Positions 1 through 63,355 of a stretch of 64,000 nt of DNA are shown here, in pieces. The notes under the pieces are model-generated. The model was given only the letters and a program-made list of their open reading frames with translations, was not told where the DNA came from and did no database searches. The stretch lies in the NCBI GenBank assembly GCA_963716725.1, contig CAVQUB010000005.1, positions 32,001 through 96,000 on the forward strand. The letters run 5' to 3'. Numbering within the stretch: the stretch's first letter is position 1; each line of letters opens with the position of its first letter. The stretch comes from an uncultured delta proteobacterium (GTDB taxonomy: Bacteria; Myxococcota_A; Polyangia; Polyangiales; Polyangiaceae). The position numbers were made by a program, and so were the translations under genes.

Positions 1-204
1 GCTGTCGATTTTGAAAGTGCGCTTGAGGAGCTCACGCCACGGGCGATAAGTCGAGCGATGCGTCGCCGGTCGTGCGGCGGTGGCGGTCTCATCGTGAATG
101 TGGGCAGGAGCACGCGCAGGGTTCGTGGTGGCACAGTCGTGCACCGGTGGCGGAGGTGGAGCGACTCTGGTTCTCCAGCGATGAGCTGCAGCGAGCACCC
201 CCGA

Positions 205-231
205 GTCCCCCGTCGGGGACTTCCCAGGGTC
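205..231 (-). repeat. 27-bp hairpin module Q inserted in frame in the transposase (adds DPGKSPTGD)
   Basis: Minus strand GACCCTGGGAAGTCCCCGACGGGGGAC with stem GTCCCC-GACG-GGGGAC; separates HY from SGVLA. Confidence 0.8.
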
Positions 232-351
232 GTAATGGACGCGATGGGCGCGTGGGGCAGGCACCGAGGCGGCTAGCCGGAGAAGAAACGACAACGGATC
301 GAGATCGATGGCCGTGGTGCCGTCGGAGAACGGTCGCTTGAGCAGGATGCG

Positions 352-405
352 ACGCGCTTCGCGACGATCCTTGAAAGTGCCCGGAGGGGCATCCCCGAAG
401 GGGGG
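352..405 (+). repeat. 54-bp element (module Q nested in module P), in frame and antisense in the transposase
   Basis: ACGCGCTTCGCGAC-GATCCTTGAAAGTGCCCGGAGGGGCAT-CCCCGAAGGGGGG; 48/54 identical to 26348-26401; splits GLV|RILLKRP and adds 18 aa with no stop. Confidence 0.85.
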
Positions 406-498
406 CACGAGCCCACTTCCGAGTCGACGCACTCGGTCTTGCGCGAGCGGCGGGCGTAGGACGTACTTGCAGAGGGTTTCGCGAGCACGCGCGTCCTC

Positions 499-543
499 CC
501 CCGTCGGGGACTTCCCAGGAGCCGCTTCGGAACACCCGGAGGG
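499..543. repeat. Q (minus) plus P (plus) modules side by side; P is completed at 2019-2021 on the far side of the IS4 element
   Basis: CCCCGTCGGGGACTTCCCAGG followed by AGCCGCTTCGGAACACCCGGAGGG(GTG); flanked by GTCCTC direct repeats at 493-498 and 2022-2027; net 54 bp. Confidence 0.8.
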
Positions 544-2010
544 CTCATGATTGATCGGATCCCATCTGGGACCGGGCAGCTCGGAAGCCGATCTCGTAGT
601 CGAGGAGCTTCTGGTAGCCCCGTCCTAACGTTTGCCACCCGGGTGCGCCGTTGTTCTTCAGATGCCCGCCGAGTCGCGCGACAGCGAATAGCGCTTGCTC
701 AATGGTCTGCGGGACGGCCGGGAGGCGGAGCTTGAACTTTATGAGGAGCAACTGGGGCTCACTCAGGATCGTTGTTGCCGGTTGCTCGGGTGCGACGCGG
801 GCTAACGAGCGCATGAGCAACAGGCGCCAGGCGATGGGCAGGAACACGGCGAGCGCGTTGCTCAGTGCCTGATACGACTCGAGCTGTCGTTTCTCGAGAG
901 AACACCCTTGCTTGAGTGCCTTGAAGAACTCTTCGATCACCCACCGACTGCGGTAACAGTCCACGACGGTCGCGAGTTCGGCGACGGTGTCAATGGGTTC
1001 GGTAGTGAGCAGCACCCACTCGACCGACGGCTCGCCTTCTGGTGGTTGGAGTTCCCAGACTCGAACCACGTTGAGTTCGATGCTGCGCGTCTCATGTCGA
1101 GTGTTGCGGGGGCGCAGCACAGTCAAACGTTTGCCTGCCACGGCGACCTCCGCGCTCCGGGCGTTGCGAGACGGGTGCTCTTTTGCAGCATGCGCGCGAC
1201 TGCTCGGTTTCCTCGATGACACCGAGATCGTGCGAAAAAACTGCGGTTCGAGCGTTGAGATTGCACTGCGCAAGCAGATGCCTATTTCCTCAGTTACTCG
1301 GTCGTGAGCCGAACGGATGACGTAGCGCGCACCGAGTTCCTGCGCCTTCGCCAGGACCTCGAAAATGTCCGCTTCGCGGTCCATCACGTGAATGAGCGCG
1401 CTGCCGGGGCAGCGTGCATGGACGGCCTCGAGCATGGCCGGCCAGCGCAGTGATTCGCGCTCGGGGTCTCTCCGACTGACAGACCGGCGGCGCCCGCGTC
1501 CACCCTTGTGTACGAGGCGGACGTGTCGCTGTAGACCCAGAACTCCGAGTGGCACTCGCTCCTCGCCGGGAAGCACGGCCAGCGCCACGTGTGCGAGAAA
1601 CCCCTGGCTGCCGCCGGACGTGACGCCCAACCCAGCTCGCCGACTGGCGCCGCCGAGCGATACTTCGGTCGTATCGTGCGCGACGATACACAGGCCAGCG
1701 GAACTCACACGCTCCACCGTCGCCGACAGGTGCGGGTCAAGGATCTGCTCCGCGTCGAACTGCTCGTTGCGCAGGAATCGGTAGACTCCCTCAAGCTCGG
1801 ACGGAGTGTCGACAGCCTGCGGAAACCCAACACCGGGCGCCGCCATCAGTTTCTCAGCGAGCCAACCGAGCCTGTCACTGCGCCGCTTATCGCCGAGCTG
1901 AGAGCCCTCGAACTCGTCCGAAATCGACCGCCCTAACCATTCTGTTGCCGGCATTTCTCCCGTAGATCACACGCGCCGTCCGCTCGCAATGAGATGTGTT
2001 TGATCATGAG
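544..2010 (-). mobile_element. IS4-family (IS50/Tn5-like) insertion sequence, 1467 bp
   Basis: Imperfect terminal inverted repeats CTCATGATTGATCGGATC and CTCATGATCAAACACATC; 8-bp target duplication CCGGAGGG at 536-543 and 2011-2018; contains one DDE transposase gene. Confidence 0.9.
545..1954 (-). CDS. IS4-family DDE transposase (IS50 group)
   Basis: Motifs LGDKRR, YRFLRN, HDTTE, MDREAD, YRSRWVIEEFFKALK (YREK) and ARLGG..PGWQTLGRG; stop codon lies inside the terminal repeat. Confidence 0.93.
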   Translation of the reverse strand: MPATEWLGRSISDEFEGSQLGDKRRSDRLGWLAEKLMAAPGVGFPQAVDTPSELEGVYRFLRNEQFDAEQILDPHLSATVERVSSAGLCIVAHDTTEVSLGGASRRAGLGVTSGGSQGFLAHVALAVLPGEERVPLGVLGLQRHVRLVHKGGRGRRRSVSRRDPERESLRWPAMLEAVHARCPGSALIHVMDREADIFEVLAKAQELGARYVIRSAHDRVTEEIGICLRSAISTLEPQFFRTISVSSRKPSSRAHAAKEHPSRNARSAEVAVAGKRLTVLRPRNTRHETRSIELNVVRVWELQPPEGEPSVEWVLLTTEPIDTVAELATVVDCYRSRWVIEEFFKALKQGCSLEKRQLESYQALSNALAVFLPIAWRLLLMRSLARVAPEQPATTILSEPQLLLIKFKLRLPAVPQTIEQALFAVARLGGHLKNNGAPGWQTLGRGYQKLLDYEIGFRAARSQMGSDQS

Positions 2011-3008
2011 CCGGAGGGGTGGTCCTCGCCGGGAGCCGTGGTGGCCGCATGCACCGAGAAGCCGTCCTCGCGGGCGGCCAGACCGGAAACGGAGAGCTCG
2101 CCGCGATCGGGCAGTGCGATGGCGGGACGCTGCCGATGCTCGGGCCCCGCCGGAGGGTTGCCGGTGACGGCGGCGGTGGCGAGTGCGGCCAGCTCGGGCT
2201 CGCGCTCGGCGAAACCGTCGTCGGTGAGGCAGAGCTCGTTGTCTCGTTCGACGACGCCGCGACGCGCGAGAAAGTCCAAGATGCGCACGCGGGCGGCGTG
2301 CAAGAGATCTGCGACGTCGGAGTTGGAGAGCGCGGGGAGCTGGTGGAAGACGAGGCTCCCGTCATCGGTCTCGAGGAAGACTCCGTCCAACGCGAGCAGG
2401 TGCAGGTGGGGGTTGAGTCGGAGGTCGGAATTCACGCGTTGCACAGCGGTGATCGCGCCGCTCTGGCCTTTGCCCACGCGGTAGAGGTCGCGCATCGTGC
2501 GGCGGTAGAAGCCGAGCACGCTGTCGGCGAACAGTCGCGTGATCCGGCTGAGCAGCTCGCGGTCGTAGGCGACGCGGGCGCGGAGCTCGAACGGCAAGGT
2601 GAGAACCCACTGCCTGAGCGGAGCACGCGACGGCAGAACATGGTCGATCCAATTCGCCGCTGACTCGGCCATCGTTCTGCCCAGGCACGAGGGGCACCAT
2701 GCGCGTCCCTTGCAAGAAAACGCGACCAAGAGCTTCGCGCGGCACTTCGGGTCTTGGCATTGAAGAAATCCAAAACCGTGCGCCAGGATTCCGCACTCGA
2801 GGTAGCCCTCGAACTCATCCCTCACGAACGCCGGCAACAGCGCGATGATCTCTTGGTCTGCGGCGGCTTCGAGCGTGCGGTAGTTCTCGGCGACGACCTG
2901 GTAGAAGTCGCTGAGCTCCGGTCGCCGGCGTCGATATTCGACGCCGCTGCCATCCGAAGTTGCGTCCGAGATCGGCAGCGCGGCGGCCATCGCCGCGCCC
3001 GAGCGCAC
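2011..3008 (-). pseudogene. N-terminal half of IS91/ISCR-type HUH rolling-circle transposase, interrupted by the IS4 element
   Basis: YRRRRPE; Cys-rich zinc-binding segment (CGILAHGF...C...C...AFSCKGRAWCPSC); RQWVLTLP; NPHLH (HUH); FSVHAAT. The ORF stop at 2004 comes from the IS end. Confidence 0.9.
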
Positions 3009-3608
3009 ACGGCGTGCCGACCCCGCCCGGGGCGAGAACGCCGCAAATTACCGTGTTGCAGGCGCTCGGGTGGGTGGCGAAACGCCGGCCGCCGGCGGCG
3101 GCCGCCACTGCCCACCGCTGCGCGCTACCCCGCCGCCGCCGCGAACCCCAGCGACTCACCCGCTTCCGGCGCTCGCATCACCAGCATCAGACGCGTCCGT
3201 TCCCTGGCAAGCCAGGGTCCGAAGCTCGTGAACCACGCCGGCTCGAGCCCGGCACCACGCGCCCAAGAGCGCGACCGAAAGCCCTGCCATCCTCGGCCCG
3301 AGCTCACGTCGCAGGATCAATCGCAGTGGAACTCGCTGCCAAAACAACTGCGAACGTGTCTGTCCATTCCCGAAGGAAACCCCCGTCCGCCTGAGCGGGA
3401 CGATCCAACGCGCCACCTCGGCCCAAATCGGAGCCGCCCATGAGCAGTACGTGTTCGTTCCGGATCCGCCGCCCGGAACGAGCGGCAACTGACGTAGCGG
3501 GCGTGCTCGTGCGTGCGCCCAGGTTTTCCGATGAGCGCGCAGTGGCGCTCATGTGGGAGGCTCGGTGCACAAACACCCCCCCCCGCCTCCGCGCTCCGAG
3601 CCCCGCCA

Positions 3609-26299: not shown

Positions 26300-27188
26300 A
26301 TGTTCGCGCGCTGGTTCTGCTCCTGCTCCGCTGTCGTGCTCGTCGTGACGCGCTTCGCGACGATCCTGGAAAGTCCCCGGAGGGGGATACCCGACGGGGT
26401 GGGGCAGGCATGGGCGGCCGAATCGGGGATTCGATCCCGAGTCACCGGCCGAGTCGACGCCTGCGCCTGCGCCTGCGCCCGCGACGACGGCGGATCCGCC
26501 GTACGCAGCCTGGCAAGGCTCGGGTCACGCCCCACCCGACGGCTACTCACCCGGATCGATTCCGGCGCCAGCGGTCGGCGCACCCATCTACGCGCGTCGA
26601 ACGGTCGAGCTCATCCCCGCGCTTGGCGTCGCCCTGGCGAACTGTCGCGCCGGCTCCCGCTCCGACAACCGCTGTGATGGCGTCGGCGGCGGCGGCATCG
26701 TCGGGTTCACCGGGCTCTGGCGAGTCACGCCCTACTTCGCGTGGGGTGGCGGCTTCGAGGTCGCGGCGTTCCGCAATCGACCCTCCGAGGAGAGTGAGCT
26801 CTCCGACGCGAGCGCTGCGGCCGTGTGGCTCGGGCTGATCGGTCGGGTGTATTTCAACGACGAAGGCGCCCTCGATCCCTACGTGCAACTCGCCATCGGC
26901 GTCGGTGCGCTCGGCACGCAGGCGACCGATCCGGCGGACGTCACCTGGGAGGAGACCGGCGCCGGACCCGCGGCACAAATTGGCGGGGGCCTCGACTTCC
27001 ACCTTTCGCGATCGCTTCGGCTCGGTCCGTCGCTGACCTACACACGGGTGTTCGTGGACAAGATCCGACGCTGTCAGGCCTCGGGCGGCGGCAAGTGCGA
27101 GGACGTGTCGAAGGACGACGACGGTCACTTGAACTCACACCTGACGCTGGCCGCTCGCCTGACCATCACTCTGGGGGGGGAGCACTGA
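26300..27188 (+). pseudogene. Outer-membrane beta-barrel-like protein with a 54-bp insert in the signal peptide and a +1 frameshift near 26425-26428
   Basis: Signal peptide MFARWFCSCSAVVLVV[insert]GQAWA-AES; a different frame continues GFDPESPAE...ELIPALG...DPYVQLAIG..GGGLDF..LGPSLTY to the stop at 27188. Confidence 0.65.
26348..26401 (+). repeat. 54-bp element (Q nested in P)
   Basis: ACGCGCTTCGCGAC-GATCCTGGAAAGTCCCCGGAGGGGGAT-ACCCGACGGGGTG; no internal stop codon in any of six frames. Confidence 0.85.
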
Positions 27189-62561: not shown

Positions 62562-63355
62562 GCGCGACCGTTTCGCGCCAAGACCACCTCGTGACTCGCA
62601 AAGAACCCTCAGCCGACTACGTGCGGGAGTTCGCCGCCAGTATGTCGCGTGTTTATCGCGCTGCCCACGGCGAGGCCGAGATCCGCGAGCATGCCGGGGC
62701 CGCCACGCGCCGCGGTGGCGCGGCGGTCAACGTAGAGTTGCTCGCACACACCCACGACGCGCTTCGTGACACCCGAAGGGGTGGAGCGCCTGGCGTGATG
62801 TGCGTGGTCGCCGACGACCGTCCCGGTCTCTTGGCGACTATCAGCGCGGCATTTGTCCTGGCGGGGCTCGATGTCATCGACGCTACCGCCCACACACGTA
62901 AGACCTCCGGCGGGCGGCGAGAAGCCGTCGACATGTTCTGGGTGCGCTACACCGAGCCCGCCAAGCGATCCGAGCGCGTGGCTGCCGCAGACGCGGAGGC
63001 CGTTGCGCGCGTGCTCGTCGATTTGCTCGAAGGCAGGCTCGACCGCGAGGTGGCCTCGAGGCGCTCGGTGGGCCCGGCGCCCAAGGCCAGCGAGACCAAG
63101 GTGAGGTTTGTCGAAAACGAAGACGGCGAGCTGGCGACGCTCGAGGTCGAGACCGACGACCGCTCCGGACTCCTGCTCGCGCTCAGCCAGGCGCTCTTCG
63201 ATCAAAAAGTGCAGATCGTCGAGTCCGCGGTGAAGACCGAGGGCGCGCGCGTGCTCGATCGCTTTCAGATCGTCGAGCTCGACGGCAAGCCCATCCAGCC
63301 CCAGCGACGGCTGGAGATCCAGGTTTCGGTGTTGTCTGCGATTCAGGTGGGGTGA
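62558..63355 (+). CDS. Stand-alone tandem ACT-domain protein resembling the GlnD C-terminus
   Basis: DDRPGLL...AVDMFWV and LEVETDDRSGLL..LS...VKTEGARVLDRF; no nucleotidyltransferase or HD domain. Confidence 0.8.
   Translation: MSATVSRQDHLVTRKEPSADYVREFAASMSRVYRAAHGEAEIREHAGAATRRGGAAVNVELLAHTHDALRDTRRGGAPGVMCVVADDRPGLLATISAAFVLAGLDVIDATAHTRKTSGGRREAVDMFWVRYTEPAKRSERVAAADAEAVARVLVDLLEGRLDREVASRRSVGPAPKASETKVRFVENEDGELATLEVETDDRSGLLLALSQALFDQKVQIVESAVKTEGARVLDRFQIVELDGKPIQPQRRLEIQVSVLSAIQVG
62757..62783 (+). repeat. 27-bp module P inserted in frame (adds DALRDTRRG)
   Basis: ACGCGCTTCGTGACACCCGAAGGGGTG, equal to the 54-mer without its central Q; hairpin CACCC-GAAG-GGGTG. Confidence 0.8.

What the first reader, a model, noticed from the sequence alone, without database searches (positions are those of the whole stretch)
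1..3008. Rolling-circle transposase gene carries three in-frame hairpin inserts and was an open frame before the IS4 hit
Seen: deleting 544-2018 joins ORF 2004..3008 to frame 543->1, giving an uninterrupted HUH transposase with inserts HPSGCSEAAPGKSPTGED, PPFGDAPPGTFKDRREAR and DPGKSPTGD within about 340 bp. They flank but spare the presumed catalytic KYVLRP, which has a single Tyr (ISCR-like rather than YxxxY). Three of five copies in 64 kb lie in this gene. Inference: either ssDNA exposed during rolling-circle transposition is a hotspot, or this enzyme family mobilises the hairpins, or a dispensable gene simply tolerates them.
Basis: partly seen in the sequence, partly recalled or inferred. 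Interest (0 to 1): 0.72.

Follow-up and report, generated by a model that had tools for sequence, protein, structure and literature searches.

The report
Hairpin mini-elements riddling a dead transposase gene
A broken rolling-circle transposase gene of a soil/water myxobacterium carries four in-frame insertions built from 27-base hairpin modules, a new variant of the known "palindromes inside genes" phenomenon, and the insertion sequence that split the gene aimed at one of those hairpins.

Summary
Window 1-3008 (minus strand) is an ISCR-like, single-tyrosine IS91-family transposase gene. It is split by a 1467-bp IS4-family element (544-2010) with an 8-bp target duplication (536-543 / 2011-2018). 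Without the IS the frame is continuous and runs 270 nt past the window edge to a natural stop.

All three inserts are true insertions, absent from an 88%-identical orthologue. A fourth lies just outside the window.

- Everything comes in 27-nt quanta. There is a P unit and an S unit; the 54-nt inserts are composites of one S-type and one P-type unit (in ins2/ins4 the P unit is nested in the S unit).
- The units are discrete, hairpin-forming, usually stop-free elements, mostly confined to this genus.
- 28 of 82 P loci lie in IS91-like genes, which make up 0.3% of the genome. Another 22 lie in other mobile-element genes, and young identical IS copies have none.
- The IS4 element targets the S hairpin at all 10 copies or fragments examined.

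No link to the HUH enzyme was found: the IS end is unlike the units, a genome with P lacks the Y2_Tnp domain (the IS91-family transposase core), and the units occur in both orientations.

This is a REP/RPE-like family, a new variant of a known kind. This scan has met in-frame REP-like hairpins before, on other DNA. The mobilising enzyme remains unknown.

The parts
2019..3008 (-). 5' part of the ISCR-like IS91-family transposase gene (GTG start at 3008). It holds the zinc-binding domain and the HUH motif, HLH, at 2400-2408.
   Evidence: Pfam Zn_Tnp_IS91 E 4.4e-12 and Y2_Tnp N half. NCBIfam ISCR_clade_Ia 155.5 bits. NPHLHLL translated. 88-89% aa identity to L002 and L001 over residues 1-329.
1..543 (-). 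3' part of the same gene. The catalytic Tyr codon is at 463-465. The frame runs on past the window to C5:31731.
   Evidence: Translation. Continuation to the stop. Y2_Tnp C half. LCKYVLRPP. Alignments to C35, L002 and L022.
544..2010 (-). IS4-family insertion sequence, 1467 bp, transposase ORF 545..1954. One of 7 full copies at 99.9-100% identity.
   Evidence: Pfam DDE_Tnp_1, Tnp_DNA_bind. NCBIfam transpos_IS4_3 295.5 bits. Terminal inverted repeat I1. Copies and flanks.
536..543 (.). Left copy of the 8-bp target duplication CCGGAGGG. It lies in the S-type hairpin half of ins1.
   Evidence: Read. The same hairpin target is seen at all other IS4-like copies.
2011..2018 (.). Right copy of the 8-bp target duplication CCGGAGGG.
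   Evidence: Read.
493..543 (+). ins1, 54 nt with 2019-2021. It is one P unit plus one S-like unit and encodes HPSGCSEAAPGKSPTGED. It sits at the N-cap of the catalytic helix.
   Evidence: Absent in L002, which reads ...TTAPGED|ARARETLCKY. Present and identical in the paralogue C35. Mapped at D329|A330 on the model.
352..405 (-). ins2, 54 nt, 'Q' type: an S unit (15+12 nt) with a P-type unit nested inside. It encodes PPFGDAPPGTFKDRREAR.
   Evidence: Clean 54-nt gap against C35, L002, L010, L005 and L022. Other Q copies. A bare S unit at site B0.
205..231 (+). ins3, a single 27-nt P unit encoding DPGKSPTGD, inside a predicted beta-strand.
   Evidence: Clean 27-nt gap against C35 and L002. The same site is filled, 27 of 27 identical, in congener copy L022. 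Mapped at Y398|S399 on the model.

Best explanation
The region is a dead copy of an ISCR-like (single-Tyr HUH) IS91-family rolling-circle transposase gene. It has been colonised by a genus-restricted family of discrete 27-nt hairpin mini-elements of the REP/RPE kind.

There are two unit types:
- P: hairpin followed by ACTTCCCAGGGTC.
- S: CACCC-loop-GGGTG followed by TCGCGAAGCGCG.

ins3 is one P unit. ins2 and the off-window ins4 are an S unit with a P unit nested in it, in opposite orientations. ins1 is an S-like unit plus a P unit.

Each unit is exactly 9 codons and mostly free of stops, so insertions lengthen the protein without breaking the frame. An IS4-family element that targets the loop and stem of S-type hairpins then landed in ins1 and split the gene.

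Shown here:
- the inserts are true insertions with defined ends;
- the hairpin is kept by compensatory changes;
- the units accumulate far above expectation in mobile-element genes, IS91-like most of all;
- the IS4 targeting.

Inferred:
- the units move as single-stranded hairpin elements by a cut-and-join reaction next to a T, catalysed by an enzyme not yet identified;
- their excess in old mobile-element genes reflects a real insertion bias towards such DNA, added to by hitch-hiking on IS copies and by relaxed selection.
For: True insertions. Filled against empty comparisons give clean gaps of 54, 27 and 54 nt against C35. All four inserts are absent from L002, whose N part is 88% identical.

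The 27-nt quantum. In a second IS91-like subfamily, all 20 insert copies at 9 sites (B0-B8) are exactly 27 nt against an intact copy. There are perfect tandem arrays of 27-nt period with 2-11 units.

Defined ends. Of 27 possible rotations, register 0 fits 17 and register 1 fits 16 of 20 site-copies.

Hairpin. 294 of 354 stem cells pair, against 145-195 in shifted registers. C-G, T-A and A-T alternate at two stem positions across 59 distinct copies.

Enrichment. 28 of 82 P loci lie in IS91-like regions (0.31% of the genome). By context the 82 loci split as IS91-like 28, HNH/DUF222-like 9, rve_3 8, DDE 3, other rve 2 and none 32. There are 0 in 58 kb of young IS4-like, DDE509, rve484 and DDE705 copies.

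Replication in a congener. In G001, 7 of 13 pattern hits lie in or within 160 nt of IS91-like genes.

Recurrent sites. A P unit follows the catalytic Tyr in subfamily A of G001 and in subfamily B' of G000. ins3 is 27 of 27 identical in G000 and G002, while the flanks are about 82% identical.

Cellular genes also carry units in frame: a TPR protein with (PSGTFKDRT)x8 and an FG-GAP protein with DLGKSPTGD.

IS4 targeting. All 7 full copies and 3 fragments abut halves of a CACCC-NNNN-GGGTG hairpin. Five have perfect 8-bp duplications, one has one mismatch, and one has inverted flanks.

Precedents. In-frame RPEs and CGTC REPs without a transposase (PMC3733652, passages). The IS4-family element ISRm22 has 10 of 10 copies in REPs (PMC1525189, passages).
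Against: No enzyme is identified.
- The only clear Y1_Tnp gene is flanked by different hairpins that occur nowhere else.
- Neither Y2_Tnp nor the HNH family tracks the presence of P across 41 genomes.

No single cut register fits all sites: B2, B5 and B8 disagree.

No empty and filled alleles were seen together in reads, so current mobility is not shown.

The enrichment counts are inflated by IS copies that share inserts. There are about 14 distinct sites among the 28 loci, and that site count was made by eye.

Folding energies of single units are not exceptional against shuffles (z -1.3 to +1.0).

The excess in old copies could partly be age alone.
Confidence: 0.6

Rival explanations
1. The IS91/ISCR-like HUH transposase itself mobilises the 27-nt hairpins. 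It nicks next to the hairpin and joins the unit into nearby single-stranded DNA. The transposase acts preferentially on the DNA that encodes it, so its own gene is hit most often.
For: The largest number of P loci lies in IS91-like genes (28 of 82). The same holds in congener G001 (7 of 13). HUH enzymes act on hairpins in ssDNA (established for IS200/IS605 and REP/RAYT; abstracts listed). CGTC-type REPs have no known transposase (PMC3733652, passages). Junctions are compatible with a cut at G^T.
Against: The ori-like end of this IS (...CACCTATGCGC|) and the conserved end of the second subfamily bear no likeness to P or S. G019 has 10 pattern hits but no Y2_Tnp match in a genome rated 100% complete. 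Y2_Tnp is found in 30 of 41 relatives and P in 7 of 41. The intact, identical IS91-like copies carry no units and no units flank them closely. HNH, rve_3 and DDE genes are hit at comparable density per distinct site. Units lie in both orientations.
Confidence: 0.1
2. Single-stranded DNA made during rolling-circle transposition of IS91-like elements is the hotspot, whatever enzyme moves the hairpins. The IS spends time as ssDNA and so collects ssDNA-specific insertions.
For: Enrichment in IS91-like genes. The IS91 family is known to transpose through ssDNA intermediates (recalled from the literature, not read here). Truncated tandem copies of the second subfamily at C13:110108-114477 look like rolling-circle products.
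Against: Only one strand is displaced, which predicts one orientation of the units relative to the IS. Observed: about 8 antisense to 4 sense (by eye). HNH/DUF222-like, rve_3 and DDE genes, which are not rolling-circle elements, are also hit. The young, presumably most active IS91-like copies have no units.
Confidence: 0.12
3. There is no insertion bias at all. Units land at random and survive only where they do no harm, that is in dispensable, decaying mobile-element genes, and are then multiplied when those elements copy themselves.
For: Two of four inserts lie inside confidently predicted beta-strands and one at the N-cap of the catalytic helix. In relatives a unit follows the catalytic Tyr, as expected without selection for function. 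Many loci are the same site in several IS copies. Stop-poor 9-codon units keep frames open without selection.
Against: Intergenic DNA, also tolerant, holds at most 32 loci in about 7.75 Mb, against more than 20 distinct sites in a few kb of unique mobile-element sequence (the site count is by eye). The same codon is hit independently in two subfamilies that are about 35% identical. ins3 is identical in two species despite dS of 0.89 in the flanks. The gene backbone shows dN/dS of 0.17-0.27 and no frameshift, so this copy was not long dead.
Confidence: 0.15

Closest known systems
Rickettsia palindromic elements (RPEs) and CGTC-tagged REPs (Di Nocera et al. 2013, PMC3733652; passages read)
   Same: Short palindromic repeats dispersed in one lineage, found in frame inside ORFs of known proteins as well as between genes. 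No dedicated transposase is known. The units end in GTC, and CGTC appears where units abut.
   Different: Strict 27-nt (9-codon) unit. Units nest to give 54 nt and form 27-nt tandem arrays. Stems are 4-7 bp and C/G-rich, rather than 8-9 bp starting with A/T. The host is a Polyangiaceae-type myxobacterium. Most P copies lie in mobile-element genes.
REP / REPIN elements with RAYT (Y1 HUH) transposases
   Same: A hairpin kept by compensatory changes, many copies, and a likely ssDNA-based cut-and-join mechanism. Such elements are targets for IS elements.
   Different: No GTAG tag. The genome's only clear Y1_Tnp gene is flanked by unrelated hairpins that occur nowhere else. P copies are mostly intragenic.
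ISCR elements (ISCR1, ISVsa3/ISCR2) of the IS91 family
   Same: The host gene has the same architecture: N-terminal zinc domain, HUH, a single catalytic Tyr, and a C-terminal CxxC. It is 33.8% identical over 91% of its length to ISCR1, and the best NCBIfam model is ISCR_clade_Ia.
   Different: A distant environmental branch, far below that model's cut-off of 925 bits. This copy is interrupted and carries 63 extra residues from hairpin units.
REP-targeting insertion sequences, e.g. ISRm22 (IS4 family) of Sinorhizobium meliloti (Tobes and Pareja 2006, PMC1525189; passages read)
   Same: An IS4-family element with every copy inserted in a palindromic repeat, at a palindromic site with G/C at the ends of the duplication.
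   Different: A different IS and a different repeat. Here the targeted hairpins often lie inside genes, so the IS ends up inside IS91-like genes.

Membership tests
IS91 family transposase, ISCR-like branch | N-terminal zinc-binding domain (Zn_Tnp_IS91) | tested here: met
   Pfam PF14319, E 4.4e-12, 46.3 bits against a cut-off of 26.3.
IS91 family transposase, ISCR-like branch | Y2_Tnp catalytic domain with HUH motif | tested here: met
   PF04986 matches both pieces: N half 19.4 bits, just under the 20.9 cut-off; C half 21.7 bits. HLH lies at 2400-2408. H201 and H203 are invariant in 60 sequences.
IS91 family transposase, ISCR-like branch | Catalytic tyrosine(s): YxxxY in classical IS91, a single Tyr in ISCR | tested here: met
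   For the ISCR-like form: LCKY aligns with ISCR1 LCRY and with YLGRY of a classical type, so the first Tyr is missing. That ISCR elements have one Tyr is recalled knowledge; the alignment here shows it for ISCR1.
IS91 family transposase, ISCR-like branch | Curated NCBIfam cut-offs | tested here: not met
   ISCR_clade_Ia scores 155.5, 36.7 and 248.7 (L002) against a cut-off of 925. transpos_IS91 scores 49.8 and 70.7 against 125. It is a distant branch, and the gene is in pieces.
IS91 family transposase, ISCR-like branch | Defined oriIS end downstream of the gene and a variable terIS side | tested here: inconclusive
   Four comparators lose homology at the same point, C5:31512 (...CACCTATGCGC|), while the upstream limits vary. 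Likeness to published oriIS sequences rests on recall only.
IS4 family insertion sequence | DDE transposase, terminal inverted repeats, target duplication, several copies | tested here: met
   transpos_IS4_3 295.5 bits against a cut-off of 160. Inverted repeat I1. 8-bp duplication. Seven full copies at 99.9-100% identity.
REP with RAYT (REPtron) | Repeats flank a Y1 (RAYT) transposase gene in inverted orientation | tested here: not met
   The Y1_Tnp gene at C5:165574-165909 is flanked by other hairpins that occur only there.
REP with RAYT (REPtron) | Conserved GTAG tag and extragenic location | tested here: not met
   Units begin GTC or TCC. 50 of 82 P loci lie in mobile-element genes and others in cellular genes.
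RPE / CGTC-tagged REP superfamily | In-frame occurrence inside ORFs of otherwise ordinary proteins | tested here: met
   Seen in the IS91-like genes, a TPR protein, an FG-GAP protein, HNH genes and an rve_3 ORF.
RPE / CGTC-tagged REP superfamily | Terminal CGTC tag; stem of 8-9 bp beginning with A/T pairs; CCA tail | tested here: not met
   CGTC appears only where a unit follows ...C or another unit. Stems are 4-7 bp and C/G-rich. The tail is ACTTCCCAGGGTC, set against the description in PMC3733652.
MITE | Terminal inverted repeats of a parent IS and a target duplication | tested here: not met
   The 27-nt units have no likeness to the ends of the IS4-like or IS91-like elements. There is at most a 1-3 nt junction ambiguity.

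The most novel reading that the evidence does not exclude
The 27-nt units are the smallest class of HUH-mobilised elements. A single-Tyr ISCR-like transposase, or another HUH enzyme encoded in the same islands, cuts at G^T beside the hairpin and releases a unit-length ssDNA. It pastes that ssDNA 5' of a T in exposed single strands. This would explain the strict 27-nt quantum, the nesting, the unit-step arrays and the pile-up in rolling-circle transposase genes. It would also give the 'orphan' CGTC-type REPs and RPEs their missing enzyme.
Probability: 0.1. Interest if true: 0.85.

Novelty: new variant of a known kind. Interest (0 to 1): 0.52.

Why it matters
In-frame palindromic elements are known from Rickettsia and a few other groups. 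How they move, and why some families have no transposase, is still open.

This lineage offers an unusually clean system:
- units of one exact length with defined ends;
- nested and tandem forms;
- recurrent hits at the same codon in different genes and species;
- many filled/empty pairs.

It also shows two practical points. An 'intact' reading frame in a transposase gene can hide several 9-codon inserts. And an IS can appear to target a gene family when it really targets hairpins that sit inside that family.

Tried and rejected
- Reads and contigs. I laid contigs of four runs (X3, X5, X6, X7) on window 1-3100 to look for empty-site alleles of the IS or of the inserts. No joint skipping 27, 54 or 1475 nt was listed. 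The contigs are short, so this says nothing either way. Loose ends at 543/544 belong to other loci.
- RAYT as the mobiliser. Rejected: its flanking hairpins differ and are unique to that locus.
- Likeness of P or S to the IS91-like ends. None seen.
- Co-occurrence across 41 relatives of P with Y2_Tnp or with the HNH family. No match of patterns.
- GC3 heuristic for coding context. Too blunt; replaced by a codon log-odds score, which is still only indicative.
- First junction-register script. It used sliding windows and was flawed; redone with fixed windows.
- Folding energies of single units against shuffles. Not significant. The hairpin rests on covariation instead.
- Earlier notes of this scan on this genome and on this sequence. 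None found.
- Literature. Searches for such elements in myxobacteria found nothing relevant. This covers the held library only.
Full report
**What is in the window**

On the minus strand, ORF 2004..3008 matches the IS91 zinc-binding domain and the first half of the Y2_Tnp domain. The frame read from 543 down to 1 matches the second half.

Between them lies a 1467-bp element (544-2010). It encodes a 469-aa IS4-family transposase: Pfam DDE_Tnp_1 and Tnp_DNA_bind, and NCBIfam transpos_IS4_3 at 295.5 bits against a cut-off of 160. It has terminal inverted repeats (I1) and an 8-bp direct duplication, CCGGAGGG, at 536-543 and 2011-2018 (read).

Both copies of the duplication are read in the same phase.

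The window is contig C5:32001-96000 of a 7.9-Mb, 67.6% G+C assembly. Beyond the window edge the frame runs on for 90 codons to a stop at C5:31731 and aligns with the C-termini of homologues. The frame is not broken outside the window.

**Identity of the gene**

The closest named relatives are ISCR1 (33.8% identity over 91% of the length) and ISVsa3. The best NCBIfam model is ISCR_clade_Ia, far below its very high cut-off.

An alignment was made of the orthologue, a second subfamily from this genome, ISCR1, another plasmid IS91-family protein and a classical IS91-type protein. It shows the HUH histidines and one invariant Tyr. The classical protein reads YLGRY, whereas this gene and ISCR1 read LCKY and LCRY.

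Record titles of related loci place the lineage among Polyangiaceae-type myxobacteria known only as metagenome bins.

**The inserts are real insertions**

A paralogue on contig C35 lacks ins2 (54 nt), ins3 (27 nt) and a further 54-nt insert just outside the window, at window -95..-42. An orthologue in another bin, L002, is 88% identical over the N part and lacks all four. It reads ...TTAPGED|ARARETLCKY where this gene has HPSGCSEAAPGKSPTGED.

More distant homologues lack them too. None of the 120 best database homologues contains the unit-derived peptides searched for.

Contigs from other studies cover ins3 and the ins2-ins1 interval without differences, so this is not an assembly artefact.

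**Everything comes in 27-nt quanta**

- ins2 and the off-window insert are the same 54-nt element in opposite orientations.
- In a second IS91-like subfamily, diverged copies were compared with an intact copy. All 20 insert copies, at nine sites, are exactly 27 nt.
- One of these sites holds a 27-nt unit of a second type, S: CACCC-loop-GGGTG followed by TCACGCAGCGCG.
- The 54-nt element is an S unit (15 + 12 nt) with a P-type unit nested inside. ins1 is an S-like unit next to a P unit (read).
- P units also form perfect tandem arrays of 27-nt period with 2 to 11 units. These include arrays of 2-7 units at the same place in otherwise near-identical copies of another repeated element.
- The inserted 27-mers have nearly one rotation out of 27 possible. 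Register 0 fits 17 and register 1 fits 16 of 20 site-copies, so they are discrete elements with defined ends. No single cut position fits every site.
- The hairpin is kept by compensatory changes: 294 of 354 stem cells pair, against 145-195 in shifted registers. Folding energies alone are unremarkable.
- ins1 and ins3 have no stop in any of the six frames. ins2 has a stop in one frame and ins4 in two.

**Distribution**

A profile of the P unit finds 123 hits (E <= 0.01) at 82 loci. IS91-like regions found by tblastn cover 24.8 kb, or 0.31% of the genome, yet hold 28 of the 82 loci. The nominal binomial p is about 5e-49, but copies of one IS share inserts. By eye there are about 14 distinct sites.

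| Context | P loci of 82 |
|---|---|
| IS91-like | 28 |
| HNH/DUF222-like gene family | 9 |
| rve_3 ORF family | 8 |
| DDE family | 3 |
| other rve genes | 2 |
| none of these | 32 |

There are none in 58 kb of young, near-identical IS4-like, DDE509, rve484 and DDE705 copies, and none in the intact, identical IS91-like copies.

Some cellular genes carry units in frame: a TPR protein with (PSGTFKDRT)x8 and an FG-GAP protein with DLGKSPTGD.

The S motif has 54 hits (reversed control 0), of which 5 lie in IS91-like regions.

**Other genomes**

A 20-nt P pattern with at most 1 mismatch occurs as follows:
- 5 of 6 other species of the genus;
- 1 of 18 other genera of the family;
- 0 of 16 genomes of other families;
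- reversed control: 0.

In G001, 7 of 13 hits lie in or within 160 nt of IS91-like genes. The figures are 1 of 16 in G002 and 0 of 4 in G005. G019 has 10 hits but no Y2_Tnp match at all.

Y2_Tnp is present in 30 of 41 relatives and the HNH family in 16 of 41. Neither tracks P.

Two observations point to site preference:
- G001's copy of this gene has a P unit directly after the catalytic Tyr (CKY|DPGKSPTGD|VLRPP). This is the same codon as a P unit in the other subfamily of this genome (CQY|DPWKSPTGD|ITRPP), although the proteins are only about 35% identical.
- ins3 is present at the same site, 27 of 27 identical, in G002. The flanks there are about 82% identical and dS is 0.89.

**Was the protein functional with the inserts?**

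A confident AlphaFold2 model of the insert-free orthologue (pLDDT 85.5, pTM 0.85) places the inserts as follows:

| Insert | Position on the model |
|---|---|
| ins1 | N-cap of the helix that carries the catalytic Tyr (D329\|A330; helix 330-340) |
| ins2 | first residue of strand 358-361 |
| ins3 | inside strand 396-400 |
| off-window insert | inside strand 476-483 |

These are not surface loops. The backbone has no frameshift against L002, keeps the invariant residues, and shows dN/dS of 0.17-0.27. The copy was therefore under constraint until fairly recently.

Because the units are 9 codons long and mostly stop-free, the open frame is not in itself evidence that the insert-bearing protein worked.

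**The IS4 hit was aimed**

All seven full copies of the IS4-like element, and three fragments, abut halves of an S-type hairpin. Five have perfect 8-bp duplications, one has a single mismatch, and one has inverted flanks. In this gene the target is the S-like half of ins1. At C13:84056 it is the S unit inside another IS91-like gene.

This is the known behaviour of REP-targeting insertion sequences, including the IS4-family ISRm22 (PMC1525189, passages).

**Which enzyme moves the units?**

- The one clear Y1_Tnp gene is flanked by unrelated hairpins found nowhere else.
- The ori-like end of this IS (homology to four comparators stops at C5:31512...CACCTATGCGC|) and the conserved end of the other subfamily do not resemble P or S.
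- Units lie in both orientations relative to the genes: about 8 antisense to 4 sense, by eye.

I favour a REP/RPE-like mini-element with an unidentified enzyme and a real but unexplained bias towards mobile-element DNA. Hitch-hiking on IS copies and relaxed selection add to that bias.

**Comparison with what is known**

In-frame palindromic elements (Rickettsia RPEs, intragenic GTAG/CGTC REPs) and the lack of a transposase for CGTC-type repeats are described in PMC3733652 (passages).

This scan has itself reported in-frame REP-like hairpins in other genomes, there tied to RAYT-like genes and once inside the RAYT gene itself. I did not test those notes.

New here:
- the strict 27-nt unit, with nesting and unit-step arrays;
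- the host lineage;
- the pile-up in transposase genes, with recurrent hits at one codon;
- the absence of a RAYT link.

My searches of the held library found no description of such elements in myxobacteria.

**Verdict**

This is a new variant of a known kind, of moderate interest.

Noticed in passing
window 544-2010; also C24:289, C10:8851, C5:676888, C13:84056, C13:288522, C4:158802 and fragments at C5:716602, C34:146607, C1:162292: The IS4-family element sits in an S-type hairpin (CACCC-NNNN-GGGTG) at every copy. The copy at C10 has inverted rather than direct flanks, which suggests an IS-mediated inversion or insertion into a perfect palindrome.
   Followed up: partly
C6:95112, C6:71378, C13:26577, C13:329244, C21:258045; L021:315-339 (G001): Hairpins carry an 8-bp tandem duplication (for example CCCGTCGG twice) but no IS. 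These look like footprints left by excision of the IS4-like element. In G001 one lies inside the P unit of an IS91-like gene and shifts the frame.
   Followed up: no
C2:193795, C21:51030, C33:25633, C5:605040, C6:47676, C3:37333: Perfect 27-nt tandem arrays of 2-7 units lie at the same position, just upstream of 539-aa HNH-domain ORFs that are 96.8-100% identical. The HNH domain match is weak and the ORFs recall the REP13E12/DUF222 type (from memory). This is a copy-number-variable array inside a repeated element.
   Followed up: partly
C5:287503-287719 (outside the window): A 1018-aa TPR protein carries eight tandem units in frame, read as (PSGTFKDRT)x8.
   Followed up: partly
C13:110108-114477: Three head-to-tail truncated copies of the second IS91-like subfamily (1118, 1117 and 2009 nt, 100% identical, spaced 1181 nt apart) share the same sharp end. 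They may be products of rolling-circle or one-ended transposition.
   Followed up: no
C5:24600-25432 (about 7 kb before the window): An 833-nt duplicate, 99.5% identical, of the 5' part of this gene and its upstream region (equivalent to window 2414-3245).
   Followed up: no
C5:165449-166240: A Y1_Tnp (IS200/RAYT-like) gene is bracketed by inverted pairs of two hairpins (GCCCGCCC...GGGCGGGC and CCCCGGGA...TCCCGGGG). Each occurs only at these two flanks in the genome.
   Followed up: partly
window 26348-26399 and 62758-62783: These are the two other copies in the window. One is a 54-nt Q-type element at the 5' edge of an ORF, probably intergenic. The other is an S unit inside a 342-codon open frame of moderate coding score.
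   Followed up: partly
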